Virus record (IMG/VR): IMGVR_UViG_3300027798_000002
Coordinates: 1 to 38,527 of that record
Origin: a virus
Lineage: Duplodnaviria; Caudoviricetes
Reading direction: 5' to 3' (one strand)
Length of the DNA: 38,527 bases
This document shows, one piece after another, positions 12,341 to 17,561 of this stretch. Numbering within the stretch: position 1 is the first letter of the stretch; every line of letters starts with the position of its first letter. The translations under genes and the position numbers were made by a program. Under the pieces are notes generated by a model that made no database searches, was not told the origin of the DNA, and worked only from the letters and a program-made list of their open reading frames with translations.

Positions 12341-12947
12341 CTGCAAAGTATGCAAAACGAGGTTCAAGCCTGACCGCATAGAAACGTGGTGGTGCTGTCC
12401 AGAGCATCGAGAAGAGTACGCCATACTTTTATACCGAAAAGACCGTGAGCGAAGGCAGAAGAAGAAATCAGTAGCAGATAAGCAGTTAGCTAAGACACAG
12501 AAAGACGAATTGAAAGCCAGGAGGGAGAAGTTAAAGACCAAACCTCAACGAATGGCAGAGGCCCAAGCAGCATTTAACAAGTATGTGAGGCTCAAATATT
12601 TAGGCACCCCCTGCATAAGTTGCGGCAGGTACCCAGAACAGAAGTACGGCGGGACGATGGAATGTGGTCACTATCGAAGCCGCGGCGCAGCACCACACCT
12701 CCGATTTAATCTTCACAACACTGGATCCCAATGCGTTTATTGCAATCGACACCTAAGCGGCAACGTAGCCGGTTTCAGAATAGGGCTTATCGAGCGTGAC
12801 GGCTTGGATAAGGTTCAGGAAATAGATTCAAACCAAAAAACCCGCAAGTTCGACATTCCATATCTAATCCGCATTAAAACCATCTTTACCAAAAAAGCCA
12901 AGATGCTTGAGAAAAGGCGATCCCATTTTCAGGAGGTAGCATCATGA
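12312..12947 (+). CDS. ninG: NinG/Rap junction endonuclease
   Basis: CKVC..F, AQAAFNKYVR, PCISCG, CGHYRSRGAAPHLRF, QCVYCN motifs. Confidence 0.92.
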   Translation: MINKLPNHRNCKVCKTRFKPDRIETWWCCPEHREEYAILLYRKDRERRQKKKSVADKQLAKTQKDELKARREKLKTKPQRMAEAQAAFNKYVRLKYLGTPCISCGRYPEQKYGGTMECGHYRSRGAAPHLRFNLHNTGSQCVYCNRHLSGNVAGFRIGLIERDGLDKVQEIDSNQKTRKFDIPYLIRIKTIFTKKAKMLEKRRSHFQEVAS

Positions 12948-13010
12948 GTTTTTAATAACCAAGAAATTGAAATATACTGCTAATGTAAACAAATAAAAGC
13001 AGGGGTTGAT

Positions 13011-13523
13011 ATGAGCAAGAAAAAAGCCGGGATAGTGTGCTCGGTCACCGCAATCATTGCGATTATCACGACGCAATACACTGACCAGGTAAAGGTATCT
13101 AAGCAGGGACTCGAATTGATTGGCAATTCCGAATCATGTAGGCGAGATCCTTACTACTGTCCAGCCAATGTCCTTACGGTAGGCGTTGGATCAACCACAG
13201 GGAAAATCGACCCAAGTAAAATTTACTCAGATTCTGAGATAGCAGAGCGATGGGTAAAAGATATCATGTCAGCGCAAGACTGCGTTGAGAAGTATGCCAA
13301 TGGCCGCAAGATGAAGCAAGGTCAGTATGATACCACGGTATCAATTACCTTTAATGCTGGGTGTGGAAGGATGCAGAAATCGACCATGTTCAAACTATTC
13401 AGGCAGGGTGAATTTATAAAAGGCTGTAATGAATTCCCGCGCTGGGTATATGGAGGTGGAAAAGTCCTTCCTGGACTGGTAATCCGCAGAGAGGCTGAGA
13501 AGAAACTATGCCTAAGCTCATAA
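13011..13523 (+). CDS. SAR-type endolysin (GH24 lysozyme)
   Basis: Basic plus weakly hydrophobic N-terminus; E-x8-C-x5-T catalytic triad variant (ESCRRDPYYCPANVLT); GLVIRREAE. Confidence 0.9.
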   Translation: MSKKKAGIVCSVTAIIAIITTQYTDQVKVSKQGLELIGNSESCRRDPYYCPANVLTVGVGSTTGKIDPSKIYSDSEIAERWVKDIMSAQDCVEKYANGRKMKQGQYDTTVSITFNAGCGRMQKSTMFKLFRQGEFIKGCNEFPRWVYGGGKVLPGLVIRREAEKKLCLSS

Positions 13524-13696
13524 GCAACTGGAAGAAATCTCACAAACTAACCTCAATGCAGATCCTAGCGATTGCAGCAGCGGTTGAAGCGATTAACGAA
13601 GTTATATCTGACGTTATCCCCAGGTGGATATCACTGGCGCTTATCCTTGGTGCTATGATGGCCAGGCTGGTGGTGCAGGAGAGCATGACTAAATGA
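13508..13696 (+). CDS. Putative holin/pinholin (62 aa, two TM segments)
   Basis: Hydrophobicity and position between endolysin and spanins. Confidence 0.6.
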   Translation: MPKLISNWKKSHKLTSMQILAIAAAVEAINEVISDVIPRWISLALILGAMMARLVVQESMTK

Positions 13697-14022
13697 AATA
13701 TATCTGGTTATTGATTTTGGCTGTTTCTATGTACTCATTCGGATGGTTCTCTCATGGGTGGTATATCGACTCAATAAAACTATCTGAGATTAAAAAAGAT
13801 ATCTCCATTGTAGAAGAGGTTAAAACTGATGTCGCAAATAATGAGACAAAGGCCGCAGGAGTTAAAATTATCACCGAGACTAAATACAAAGTCATTAACC
13901 GAGATGTTGTCAGGTATTTGCAAAGTCCTGATCGGAATGTCTGTAATTATGACGCTAACCGGGTGCGCGCCAAGCAAGACGCTATTGACGCCGCCAATTC
14001 CATCAGCAGATTTACTCACTGA
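13693..14022 (+). CDS. Rz: Inner-membrane spanin
   Basis: N-terminal TM helix, periplasmic Cys, overlapped by a lipoprotein gene. Confidence 0.7.
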   Translation: MKYIWLLILAVSMYSFGWFSHGWYIDSIKLSEIKKDISIVEEVKTDVANNETKAAGVKIITETKYKVINRDVVRYLQSPDRNVCNYDANRVRAKQDAIDAANSISRFTH

Positions 14023-14176
14023 GCCGTGCAAGGCAAGCGATTCCGGTAAAAACAGCGATGATGAACTACAGTCAGATATAGAGACATTAAAATGCCTGGC
14101 TGAGCTAAGAGCTGACAAATACCGATGGCAAGCGTTTTATAAATCAACTCGTGCTGGTATGATAACCAAACACTAA
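13904..14176 (+). CDS. Rz1: Outer-membrane spanin lipoprotein
   Basis: Lipobox LTGC followed by Pro-rich PPIPSADLLTEPC; overlaps Rz in another frame. Confidence 0.7.
   Translation: MLSGICKVLIGMSVIMTLTGCAPSKTLLTPPIPSADLLTEPCKASDSGKNSDDELQSDIETLKCLAELRADKYRWQAFYKSTRAGMITKH
14155..14163 (+). promoter_or_regulatory. Candidate extended -10 promoter
   Basis: TG-G-TATGAT about 27 bp before a strong RBS/ATG. Confidence 0.4.
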
Positions 14177-14756: not shown

Positions 14757-15095
14757 ATGCAGGCAGAAGAGCAGCGACTAAGATCGGAGATGTCGGAGCT
14801 AAGGGTCATGCACCGAGAGTCGATGAGTGCAACAAATAAGCTCACCGAAAATATAGGGCAGCTTACTACCGAAATTCGCGTCCTAGTCTCAAAGTCAGAG
14901 CAGCATACGAAAGATATCTCAGATATCCGTGATAATGGCAAGATGGTAAGTGAAAGAGTGAGGGGTATCGAGCTGGTTATGGCCGAGCAAAAGCCACTTC
15001 ACGAAGCGATAAAGTCAATCCGGAATACATGCATCGGTCTGATAATTAGCGGACTATGTGGCATGGCATTCTTTTACATTAAATTCTCATCATGA
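14757..15095 (+). CDS. Coiled-coil protein with C-terminal TM (XhlA-like architecture)
   Basis: Heptad pattern then a terminal hydrophobic helix; GGAG RBS. Confidence 0.65.
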   Translation: MQAEEQRLRSEMSELRVMHRESMSATNKLTENIGQLTTEIRVLVSKSEQHTKDISDIRDNGKMVSERVRGIELVMAEQKPLHEAIKSIRNTCIGLIISGLCGMAFFYIKFSS

Positions 15096-15106
15096 AGGTA
15101 ACCTAT

Positions 15107-15556
15107 ATGTCGACTCAATATTCTAAAAACCCCACTCAAGGCAGAAAAGAATTGGACGAAAGTATTCAGTTAGACCCGCCACGCGCAGGAATGGTTAAGT
15201 ACATCAAGACGGCAATCGAAGAAGGGTATCAGCCTGAGCATGAAGGCTCAGTAGCCGACCTGAATGTAATAGATAGTCTTGGTGATAACTCGCTAAACCG
15301 TGAGTTTGGTAAGTGCTGGCAGTGGTACAACATGGGTGGATTGAACGAAACACTCCAAAAACAAGTGAACTTTGAAAAAGAACACAGATCTACCTTTGCC
15401 TATGATTCATCCGCATTTGAAAATGCAGCTAAGCCATTAATTAAGTGGCTAAACGATAATGCAAACCCTCATGCGTCTGTGGTTGTAGATGCAGGCAGCG
15501 CAACACTATTCACCGGCGAACTGTATGTCCATACCGATGAGTATTTGAAAGATTAA
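15107..15556 (+). CDS. Hypothetical protein
   Basis: C-terminal AAKPLIKWL.DN.NPH motif recurrent in phage proteins. Confidence 0.7.
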   Translation: MSTQYSKNPTQGRKELDESIQLDPPRAGMVKYIKTAIEEGYQPEHEGSVADLNVIDSLGDNSLNREFGKCWQWYNMGGLNETLQKQVNFEKEHRSTFAYDSSAFENAAKPLIKWLNDNANPHASVVVDAGSATLFTGELYVHTDEYLKD

Positions 15557-15565
15557 GTAGATATC

Positions 15566-15667
15566 TTCTCTCGATGGAGGTGATTGCCTGTTTCACTGGG
15601 CCTATCTTGGCGGCTCGGAAAGACGAGTAGTGGTGTAGCAACGCCGAGAGGAGTCGCAAAGCCGCGA
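15566..15667 (+). ncRNA. Candidate structured ncRNA (multi-branch junction)
   Basis: Intergenic; closing stem TTCTCTCG/CGAGAGGA enclosing 3-4 hairpins, plus a downstream hairpin. Confidence 0.55.
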
Positions 15668-15697: not shown

Positions 15698-15895
15698 ATG
15701 ATGACAGTCAAATTTGGATACTCCAATGGTGGAGAGAAAATCCATGAAGCCAAGCATGTAAACAGCAGTACTGACGGAACGATTTATATCGAAGATGGCA
15801 GCGGATACACGTACGGCGCACAGCTAAGCCGTGGTGATGTACTTTATGTGATGAATGAGAAAGGTGGCACCATCGCTACATATCATGGACTGTAG
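15698..15895 (+). CDS. Hypothetical protein
   Basis: 65 aa, AAGGA RBS, LYVMNEKGGTIATY motif. Confidence 0.7.
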   Translation: MMTVKFGYSNGGEKIHEAKHVNSSTDGTIYIEDGSGYTYGAQLSRGDVLYVMNEKGGTIATYHGL

Positions 15896-15898
15896 CTG

Positions 15899-15936
15899 AC
15901 ATTGCAGCAGGCATTTACGAGTGCCTGCGATAATGT
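15899..15936 (+). other. Lambdoid late-region hairpin with internal loop
   Basis: ACATTG-CA-GCAGGCATT-TACG-AGTGCCTGC-GA-TAATGT. Confidence 0.65.
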
Positions 15937-17078: not shown

Positions 17079-17561
17079 ATGACAGAAAATCAACAGAAAA
17101 AACCGCGCGGAGGTAGAAAGTTCACATCAGAACATCAGCCAACAGTAAGGCGCGGAAAGGATAAGTTTAAGCTCTTGATAGAGGCCCTTGAGAGGAAGGG
17201 CCATACCATAGAGGACTTCTACGATAAGGTTGTAGAGCTTGCTATGACAGATAAGGCTGATGGTGCGGCTATGCAATCGGCAATGATTAGAGAGCTGCTA
17301 GTCAGGTGCCATCCAATTCCAAAACAAACAGCTCCAATGATTACCTTTGTCTATCCTAGTCACGGAAGTCCAGTAGAGAAGATAGACGCAATTATTAATG
17401 GCGTTTCAAATGGTGAAATTCCATCTGATATAGCAACTCAGATTGTATCCATCATCAAAATTGGTATCGACGTTCAGGAAACGACTGAATTAATGGAGCG
17501 AGTGTCTAAACTGGAAGCATTGTTATCTGGTGGTATAAATGGCAAAGAAACTAGCGAGTAG
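17079..17561 (+). CDS. terS: Terminase small subunit
   Basis: Position before terL, basic N-terminus, helical C-terminus ELMERVSKLEALL. Confidence 0.7.
   Translation: MTENQQKKPRGGRKFTSEHQPTVRRGKDKFKLLIEALERKGHTIEDFYDKVVELAMTDKADGAAMQSAMIRELLVRCHPIPKQTAPMITFVYPSHGSPVEKIDAIINGVSNGEIPSDIATQIVSIIKIGIDVQETTELMERVSKLEALLSGGINGKETSE

What the first reader, a model, noticed from the sequence alone, without database searches (positions are those of the whole stretch)
15566..15667. Compact cloverleaf-like ncRNA candidate in the late region
Seen: in a 140 bp intergenic gap, an 8 bp closing stem (15566-15573/15645-15652) encloses hairpins AGGU-GAUU-GCCU, a weak CUGGG/CUUGG stem, GCUCG-GAAAGA-CGAGU and GUGGUG-UAG-CAACGC. 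A UCGC/GCGA hairpin follows. It is tRNA-sized (87 nt) but lacks TTCGA and CCA. Inference: a structured RNA such as a tRNA mimic/decoy, a cis-acting antiterminator replacing Q, or a regulatory leader.
Basis: partly seen in the sequence, partly recalled or inferred. Interest (0 to 1): 0.7.

Follow-up and report, generated by a model that had tools for sequence, protein, structure and literature searches.

The report
Phage ribosome-anchoring structured RNA module
This is a conserved, uncatalogued sequence shared by temperate and giant phages of enterobacteria that is predicted to fold as RNA hairpins rather than a tRNA-like cloverleaf, and it carries this phage's strongest predicted ribosome-binding signal with no proper gene behind it, so it likely parks a host ribosome there to shield the late message.

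Summary
The stems exist, but the cloverleaf is not the conserved fold. About 110 nt (15559-15667) recur as a unit between lysis and terminase genes of enterobacterial temperate phages, in Erwinia/Salmonella jumbo phages and in a gene-free Jedunavirus gap. Rfam and ARAGORN find nothing. Homologues support a GAAAGA-loop hairpin and a long GNRA-capped hairpin (84.6% paired, 0/500 shuffles). The GAAAGA hairpin is a pan-phage module (about 3300 viral stretches, often beside tRNAs), which this scan noted before on other DNA (e1-5874229). It does not replace Q: 14 of 18 homologue loci tested carry Q. Best guess (0.38): a ribosome-parking, factor-docking RNA that protects or punctuates the late transcript. 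Boldest reading (0.2): a decoy, since the invariant bases match E. coli 23S rRNA 2048-2063. No transcript ends, binding or function are shown.

The parts
15559..15607 (+). Variable 5' domain (P0), predicted to be closed by AGAUA/UAUCU; it holds the anti-SD strand, the extended SD and a small hairpin
   Evidence: Sequence. The closing pairing was read by eye in homologues, with a both-sides change in L092/L094; it was not counted by tool because MAFFT misaligns this domain
15565..15573 (+).
   Evidence: The P3-tip pairing is 7-8 of 8 in 16 of 21 copies with this 5' type and mostly 5-6 of 8 in the others
15576..15585 (+). Extended Shine-Dalgarno-like sequence GGAGGUGAUU, complementary to the 16S rRNA 3' tail
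   Evidence: Strongest 16S-tail duplex of the whole window on both strands (-17.5 kcal/mol; tail from the E. coli record). Motif present in 106 of 107 copies
15586..15601 (+). Optional small hairpin between the SD and UCUUG; if folded, it restores the 5-6 nt spacing seen in most other copies
   Evidence: Spacing is 4-8 nt in 82 copies, 11 nt in 1 and 21-23 nt in 23; that the long class carries this hairpin was read by eye
15607..15630 (+). UUG-started 7-codon mini-ORF; length (6 to over 40 codons) and peptide are not conserved, so it is not a peptide gene
15608..15629 (+). Pan-phage core hairpin (P2): unpaired UGRCR, stem 15613-17/15624-28, loop GAAAGA; in the commonest enterobacterial type a GUAAG-loop hairpin takes its place
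   Evidence: U-A 64, C-G 48, U-G 15, C-A 0 of 127; GRCR in 103 of 114 unselected copies
15630..15667 (+). Long hairpin P3 (15630-34/15661-65, purine-rich internal loop, 15638-39/15656-57, GNRA tip 15646-49) followed by GA
   Evidence: The same AA-GY[hairpin]RC junction occurs with unrelated hairpins in tRNA-cluster phages
15092..15556 (+). Upstream gene of unknown function (phrog_16206), context only
15698..15895 (+). Downstream small gene of unknown function (phrog_3909), with its own SD; context only

Best explanation
This is a conserved, modular sequence element of the phage late region whose extended Shine-Dalgarno likely parks a host ribosome (or 30S subunit) in front of a weak UUG start, beside two covarying hairpins that likely dock a conserved host factor, and the whole would protect or punctuate the transcript at the lysis-packaging junction. 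Shown: the sequence, its conservation as a unit, covariation of P2 and P3, the exceptional and conserved complementarity to the 16S tail, the lack of a conserved peptide or constant downstream gene, sense orientation, and coexistence with Q. Inferred: that the SD binds ribosomes; that the upstream gene's terminating ribosome opens the 5' hairpin hiding the SD; that the GAAAGA loop with its unpaired UGRCR is a protein- or ribosome-contact surface; and that the outcome is shielding from host nucleases or Rho, or release of a stable small RNA.
For: SD-like motif in 106 of 107 unique copies, none selected for it; mean duplex -18 against -6 kcal/mol for shuffles. Present in 22 of 23 true hits of a genome scan whose pattern did not ask for it, and absent from the 3 chance hits. 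Strongest site in the 38.5-kb window and in 14 of 14 8-kb loci tested. The changes seen in GAUC are A-to-G or C-to-U, which keep pairing by wobble. Spacing to UUG is conserved. P3 covariation and P2 covariation with wobble asymmetry. The core loop and unpaired UGRCR are held across unrelated phages, sometimes in tandem, as expected of a binding site. The upstream gene often ends at or inside the 5' domain. Strong SDs without a start codon stabilise mRNA in Bacilli (PMC3997798, passages).
Against: No binding, ribosome footprint or RNA end was observed. The same review says a ribosome bound at the 5' end protects downstream RNA much less well in E. coli than in Bacilli (PMC3997798). The wobble-type changes could also reflect pairing inside the 5' hairpin. 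UUG lies about 9-10 nt from the GGAGGU core, long for initiation (own knowledge). Folding signals are weak: mean z -0.93, 5 of 40 below -2; RNAalifold keeps only 6 pairs; P3 tip and base pairs exceed p 0.5 in only 17 and 11 of 40 single sequences, and in the window P3 is about 4 kcal/mol above the MFE. The core hairpin occurs in many phages without any SD (17 of 47 AAG-junction copies), so ribosome parking cannot be the core's general job. In JD001 no gene follows that could be protected.
Confidence: 0.38

Rival explanations
1. rRNA-loop decoy: the RNA imitates conserved rRNA sites and titrates a host nuclease, modifier or ribosome factor. The GAAAGA core would copy 23S 2048-2063 (the A2058 region), the GUAAG type the H71 loop, and the 5' domain the base of 16S h45.
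For: The invariant core pattern GRCR-N4-GGAAAGAC has one match in E. coli rRNA, at 23S 2048, and occurs in 2 of 2000 shuffled rRNAs. A Bacillaceae 23S has the same five 5' bases (GACAG) as a common phage variant. The GUAAG type matches 23S 1947-54. Cores cluster with tRNAs (27 of 127, all same strand; T-loops 18 of 81 against 6 in a control window), occur in tandem and in gene-free gaps, and occur in jumbo phages. An rRNA-cutting defence RNase blocked by a small hairpin RNA is described (AbiV, 10.1101/2024.05.05.592566, passages and section 11).
Against: The match was noticed after the fact. Only 2 of 8 23S records fit the whole pattern, so the phage GRCR does not track host rRNA. Overall k-mer sharing with rRNA is not above chance (5 against 6.4 8-mers), and the full-consensus score of 24/33 is typical of shuffles. 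The GUAAG 8-mer arises in 238 of 2000 shuffles. The hairpin lacks the C2055 internal loop that Erm enzymes need (PMC7449152, passages).
Confidence: 0.2
2. Translational or conformational switch controlling the next gene: the pyrimidine strand toggles between the SD and the P3 tip, and a ribosome on the mini-ORF relays translation downstream.
For: Both conformers are predicted within about 4 kcal/mol in the window. 8 of 8 pairing with the P3 tip also occurs in 2 copies with a different 5' domain. The next start codon is often 4-30 nt after the element, and in some copies the UUG frame runs into terS.
Against: The toggle pairing is absent from most copies. Downstream genes vary (terS, Rha/Ant-like, HslV-like, HNH, unknown). 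A terminator-like hairpin follows within 130 nt in 28 of 100. No same-strand annotated gene follows in JD001.
Confidence: 0.13
3. Cis-acting antiterminator (put-like or nut/boxB-like) that helps RNA polymerase through terminators before the packaging genes, replacing or adding to Q.
For: Adjacent stem-loops, as in putRNA (PMC9378689, passages). The window has no detectable Q. Terminator-like hairpins follow 28 of 100 copies. The purine-rich loop resembles boxB (recalled).
Against: Q is present in 14 of 18 homologue loci tested and in L001 and L173. The element lies after the lysis genes, not near an early promoter. My model finds no significant match in HK022 (best 7 bits, E 1.3). Simple cores show little or no excess of nearby promoters (6 against 4 of 81) or terminators (3 against 1-2). 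It is present in jumbo phages, which encode their own RNA polymerases (own knowledge).
Confidence: 0.1
4. Recombination linker ('boundary sequence'): a short conserved intergenic block kept because it lets gene modules swap, with the folding incidental.
For: Flanking genes differ widely on both sides, and the 5' domain, P2 and P3 types occur in mixed combinations.
Against: A linker needs sequence identity, not compensatory change. P2 and P3 covary, and the SD match is kept across unrelated 5' hairpins.
Confidence: 0.08
5. tRNA mimic or anticodon-nuclease decoy with a cloverleaf fold.
For: tRNA-like size; the MFE gives a multibranch loop; relatives of the core sit in tRNA clusters.
Against: No T-loop, D-loop or CCA; ARAGORN and Rfam are negative; the cloverleaf helices tested are at chance across homologues.
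Confidence: 0.03

Closest known systems
STAB-SD 5' stabilisers (Bacillus thuringiensis cryIIIA leader and related leaders)
   Same: A strong Shine-Dalgarno sequence with no proper gene behind it, proposed to hold a ribosome as a roadblock (PMC3997798, passages).
   Different: Here it is internal to a phage late operon of Gram-negative hosts, where such protection is reported to be weak. It is hidden in a hairpin and coupled to two conserved hairpins.
HK022 putRNA
   Same: A phage RNA of adjacent irregular stem-loops that needs no dedicated phage protein (PMC9378689, passages).
   Different: put is about 70 nt and lies downstream of the early promoters. This element is about 110 nt, mid-late-operon and SD-bearing; my model finds no significant match in HK022.
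Lambdoid nut-site boxB hairpins (recalled)
   Same: A short stem with a purine-rich GA-type loop in phage transcripts.
   Different: No boxA was seen at the canonical place (by eye), the 5' UGRCR is conserved, and the hairpin is spread over phages of several host phyla and tRNA clusters.
23S rRNA 2048-2063 and minimal Erm substrates
   Same: The eight bases GGAAAGAC, and in E. coli and Niallia the upstream GRCR, are in the same register; hairpin substrates also put AAAGA in a loop (PMC7449152, passages).
   Different: The phage hairpin pairs the G2056 equivalent with the C2063 equivalent and lacks the C2055 internal loop that Erm requires.
Uncatalogued GAAAGA-loop phage hairpin noted earlier in this scan (e1-5874229)
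   Same: The same core hairpin (P2).
   Different: The window's element adds the SD-bearing 5' domain, the AA-GY[P3]RC-GA extension and an interchangeable GUAAG-loop type.

Membership tests
tRNA / tRNA-like RNA | Cloverleaf closed by a conserved acceptor-like stem | tested here: not met
   Closing stem 48% paired across 40 homologues
tRNA / tRNA-like RNA | T-loop, D-loop GG motif and 3' CCA | tested here: not met
   Sequence; ARAGORN finds 0 genes
Any Rfam 15 family | Covariance-model score at the gathering threshold | tested here: not met
   Window: 0 hits; only a 14.8-bit chance hit elsewhere at E<=10; no hit on the element in 20 homologue loci
putRNA antiterminator | Location just downstream of an early promoter, about 70 nt | tested here: not met
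   Mid-late operon; no promoter-like site on the + strand between 14163 and 16310
putRNA antiterminator | Sequence/structure similarity to HK022 put | tested here: not met
   Model R1 on the whole HK022 genome: best 7 bits, E 1.3
putRNA antiterminator | Binds the RNA polymerase beta' zinc-binding domain and suppresses termination | not testable with these tools
   Needs in vitro transcription
Q-replacing late antiterminator | Occurs only where Q is absent and upstream of the late genes it controls | tested here: not met
   Q in 14 of 18 loci tested and in L001 and L173; the element is downstream of the lysis genes
STAB-SD-type stabiliser | Strong SD not followed by a genuine gene | tested here: met
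STAB-SD-type stabiliser | SD lies at or near an RNA 5' end | tested here: inconclusive
   Only assembled contigs were available, and they cannot show ends
STAB-SD-type stabiliser | 30S binding lengthens the life of downstream RNA | not testable with these tools
   Needs toeprint and half-life assays
Erm-type 23S substrate | A2051-to-A2058 register with AAAGA loop | tested here: met
   Register matches; the window has G at the 2051 equivalent, and A is present in about half of the unselected cores
Erm-type 23S substrate | Internal loop at C2055 | tested here: not met
   The stem is fully paired; requirement from PMC7449152 passages
Self-cleaving ribozymes (hammerhead, HDV-like, hairpin) | Invariant catalytic cores and required helices | tested here: not met
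   No Rfam hit. By eye against recalled consensus features: the HDV-like P3/L3 candidate is optional among homologues, and the hairpin-ribozyme G8 position covaries as a plain base pair
Small-peptide gene | Conserved reading-frame length and residues | tested here: not met
   6 to over 40 codons, two unrelated peptides

The most novel reading that the evidence does not exclude
Phages across bacterial phyla scatter a 22-nt hairpin that copies the peptidyl-transferase-loop sequence of 23S rRNA (2048-2063). In enterobacterial phages it is built into a larger RNA that also grips the 16S tail, making a ribosome-tethered rRNA decoy that soaks up host rRNA-directed defence nucleases or ribosome factors, the rRNA counterpart of phage tRNA decoys.
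Probability: 0.2. Interest if true: 0.88.

Novelty: new variant of a known kind. Interest (0 to 1): 0.62.

Why it matters
It defines a covarying RNA element that I found in no catalogue searched, in a region of temperate phages usually treated as spacer, and shows the same element in unrelated jumbo and Jedunavirus phages. Its best-conserved linear feature is the strongest predicted ribosome-binding site of the genome, yet it serves no annotated gene, which gives a sharp and cheap test. Its core hairpin is present in thousands of viral contigs from hosts of several phyla, so whatever binds it is probably a near-universal host factor. Finding that partner would reveal either a general phage device for RNA protection or a new class of RNA decoy.

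Tried and rejected
Catalogues: Rfam and ARAGORN are negative. The window element has no blastn match in E. coli genomes; the GUAAG type is in 6 of 5426.

Literature: searches showed no description of the element (listings and abstract starts only, unless stated elsewhere). Supplement searches of two candidate-RNA catalogues found no motif: PMC10690425, 6 files searched and 3 not; PMC8040213, 8 searched and 2 not. The unsearched large files may hold it.

RNA-seq: 24 runs hold part of an Enterobacter copy; 8 were laid, all assembled contigs, which run through the element into flanks and cannot show ends or levels. Not counted as evidence.

Model search: 150 other genomes of the order gave no hit, but only up to 24 candidates per genome were scored, so this is uninformative.

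Discarded numbers: one search used a structure string shifted by one column and was replaced; the two hand-drawn structure energies were mis-indexed, and the comparative one was redone.

Other readings: HDV-like, hammerhead and hairpin-ribozyme readings were rejected by eye. GATC as a Dam site was rejected because GGTC and GATT variants occur. A pattern search for P3 alone gave 10 stretches, none with the rest of the element. Overall rRNA k-mer enrichment is absent. A one-off match in the 3' end of an ssRNA phage (E 0.03) is too weak to use.

Full report
Setting. The window is a complete 38.5-kb virus record with direct terminal repeats and a P22-like gene set: nin region, endolysin-holin-spanins (13011-14176), several unknown genes, then terminase, portal, scaffold and coat from 17079-17539 on. 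The finding lies in the 141-bp gap between two unknown genes (15092-15556 and 15698-15895), on the late strand. No Q was found by PHROGs, Pfam, a genome search or tblastn with five Q types; the only tblastn hit was 40 residues at E 0.009 far from this region.

Observation. That fold is not more stable than shuffles (z -1.50; 20 of 200 as good). Rfam and ARAGORN give nothing, also on the element in 20 homologue loci.

Homologues. blastn of 261 bases found the interval 15558-15667 at 86% identity in five Yersinia temperate phages, and its middle part in Erwinia and Salmonella jumbo phages. In the one Yersinia phage I opened it lies between the spanin genes and terS. Pattern scans gave 47 viral stretches with the window's core and about 380 estimated matches, some of them chance, for a looser pattern, mostly a second type in which a GUAAG-loop hairpin replaces the GAAAGA hairpin. 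A scan of one genome per species gave 26 hits; 23 are true copies in Yersinia, Enterobacter, Citrobacter, Buttiauxella, Cedecea, Dryocola and Trabulsiella, and 3 are chance. The second type is in 6 of 5426 E. coli genomes. In Klebsiella phage JD001 it lies in a gap between minus-strand genes, behind a promoter-like site and before a terminator-like site, with no same-strand annotated gene.

Structure. A long hairpin over the same bases (P3, 15630-15665, GNRA tip) pairs in 84.6%, with 9 of 12 pairs changed on both sides, covariation 0.409, 0 of 500 shuffles, and 31-52% when slid. These controls ignore relatedness, so they are not probabilities. RNAalifold independently picks 6 pairs, all in P3, but with only -1.21 kcal/mol. 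Single-sequence support is modest: mean z -0.93; P3 tip p>0.5 in 17 of 40. In the window the closing stem dominates the computed ensemble (p about 0.9) and the best P3-containing fold is -35.3 kcal/mol against -39.4 for a nearly identical interval, so both conformers are possible here. The closing stem can form at 7-8 of 8 in 16 of 21 copies with the window's 5' type and at 8 of 8 in 2 others, but mostly at 5-6 of 8 in the rest.

The core hairpin is a pan-phage module. A 19-base pattern for it matches about 3300 viral stretches (estimate). In 127 unique copies one stem pair is U-A 64, C-G 48, U-G 15 and never C-A, which marks pairing on the sense strand. 27 of 127 have a tRNA within the fetched flanks, all on the same strand, and 12 within 15 nt. 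One 113-kb phage has three copies, each a few bases before a tRNA; others carry tandem copies. An unbiased scan for the stem-loop alone showed the unpaired GRCR in 103 of 114 copies. A subclass continues as AA-GY[hairpin]RC with unrelated hairpins: of 47 unique copies, 30 have the SD-like 5' motif and 17 do not; 11 of those 17 have a tRNA nearby, against 1 of the 30. The window belongs to the SD-bearing subclass. An earlier agent of this scan noted the same core on other DNA (e1-5874229); I had measured its spread before reading that note.

15576-15585 is complementary to the 16S rRNA 3' tail (tail from the E. coli record). The motif is present in 106 of 107 unique copies collected without asking for it (mean duplex -18 against -6 kcal/mol shuffled) and in 22 of 23 true genome hits. 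It is the strongest such site on either strand of the window and the strongest on the element's strand in 14 of 14 8-kb loci tested (14 of the 23 loci). It precedes a UUG at 4-8 nt in 82 copies, or at 21-23 nt in 23 copies, where by eye a small hairpin intervenes. The resulting frames are 6 to over 40 codons with two unrelated peptides. By eye the SD lies in the 3' strand of the variable 5' hairpin in most types, and that hairpin often begins at the upstream stop codon.

Context. Upstream genes include Rz, Rz1, HNH, Rha-like and unknown genes; downstream genes include terS, Rha/Ant-like, HslV-like, HNH and unknown genes (48 of 106 representative ORFs scanned). A terminator-like hairpin follows within 130 nt in 28 of 100 copies (my own crude finder). 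A Q-like gene lies upstream in 14 of 18 genome loci for which candidates were sent (30 of 118 ORFs) and in two isolated phages, so the element does not replace Q. Simple cores show little or no excess of nearby promoters, terminators or SD-ATG starts, but do show an excess of T-loop motifs (18 of 81 against 6).

rRNA resemblance. The invariant bases of the core match E. coli 23S 2048-2063, the only match in 16S and 23S, against 2 of 2000 shuffles. The GUAAG type matches 23S 1947-54 (238 of 2000 shuffles). Against this reading: I noticed it after the fact; only 2 of 8 23S records fit the whole pattern; total k-mer sharing is at chance; and the hairpin lacks the internal loop that Erm enzymes need (PMC7449152, passages). 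I keep it as the bold alternative at 0.2.

Expression. Eight runs were laid on an Enterobacter copy; all were assembled contigs that extend through the element, and they say nothing about ends or abundance.

Mechanism. I commit to a ribosome-anchoring, factor-docking RNA module that protects or punctuates the late transcript (0.38). The SD evidence is the firmest clue. The stabilising outcome is inferred from Bacillus STAB-SD leaders, and the same source says such protection is weak in E. coli (PMC3997798, passages). Rivals are the rRNA decoy (0.2), a translational switch (0.13), a put- or nut-like antiterminator (0.10; put features from PMC9378689, passages; no significant model match in HK022), a recombination linker (0.08) and a tRNA mimic (0.03); the rest is left to mechanisms not listed.

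Novelty. Not in Rfam 15, and not found in ten literature searches or in the searchable supplements of two candidate-RNA catalogues (five large files could not be searched and may list it). Papers seen: passages of PMC7449152, PMC3997798, PMC9378689 and PMC9974457; passages and section 11 of 10.1101/2024.05.05.592566; supplement searches only for PMC10690425 and PMC8040213; listings for the rest. Helix names (H71, h45), boxB, boundary sequences, ribozyme consensus features and jumbo-phage polymerases are from my own knowledge. Verdict: a real, uncatalogued phage RNA element with a different anatomy from the one proposed; interest 0.62.

Noticed in passing
window 12947-13011 and whole window: No Q, no clear cI and no integrase were detected; ninG is followed after 64 bp by the endolysin. 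How late genes are switched on in this phage is unexplained. L381 (Yersinia aleksiciae prophage) also showed ninG without a Q hit among the two ORFs scanned.
   Followed up: partly
L043 1000-1600: Three copies of the GAAAGA core, each 5-9 nt before a tRNA, in a phage tRNA/tmRNA cluster.
   Followed up: partly
L297-L368 (non-SD AAG-junction copies): 13 of 17 have CCTCC/CTCCT a few bases upstream, often after CAT; this reads as a minus-strand ribosome-binding site plus start codon, or as an anti-SD on the sense strand.
   Followed up: no
L001 3985-4000 and 41 of 128 copies: An upstream hairpin module containing CCGACAAGG is antisense to E. coli 23S near 1937-1949 and could also pair with the element's own UCUUGGCGG; it is absent from the window.
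   Followed up: partly
L564, L560, L542 and others: A shorter relative in the same kind of gap: the CCGACAAGG module followed directly by a P3-like GUGA hairpin, without SD or core; one match among cultured phages (Pantoea phage AH07) and none in E. coli genomes.
   Followed up: partly
L172 90-461; L406 2140-2910: JD001 and phiEt88 share long RNase III-like hairpins in non-coding stretches that also hold the core; the JD001 stretch looks like a stand-alone non-coding transcript of about 350 nt.
   Followed up: no
L003 2400-4090: A 1.7-kb gene-free, hairpin-rich region in Salmonella jumbo phage SPAsTU ends at the element, ahead of a tRNA cluster.
   Followed up: no
L210, L244, L261: Two or three tandem core hairpins at 24-nt period in the leader just before a strong SD and start codon.
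   Followed up: no
L407 501-521: A core-like sequence in the 3' untranslated end of ssRNA phage Esthiorhiza.2_44 (E 0.03, may be chance).
   Followed up: partly
window 15897-15935: A separate hairpin after the 65-aa gene also follows the element directly in some homologues (L020, L023, L386).
   Followed up: no
L001 (OM046621.1) genes 047-050: The GenBank product names are shifted by one gene: '047 holin' is a Q-like antiterminator, '048 lysozyme' a holin and '049 Rz' the endolysin.
   Followed up: yes
L035 1374-1438: An Rfam int-alpA RNA directly follows the element in this prophage.
   Followed up: no
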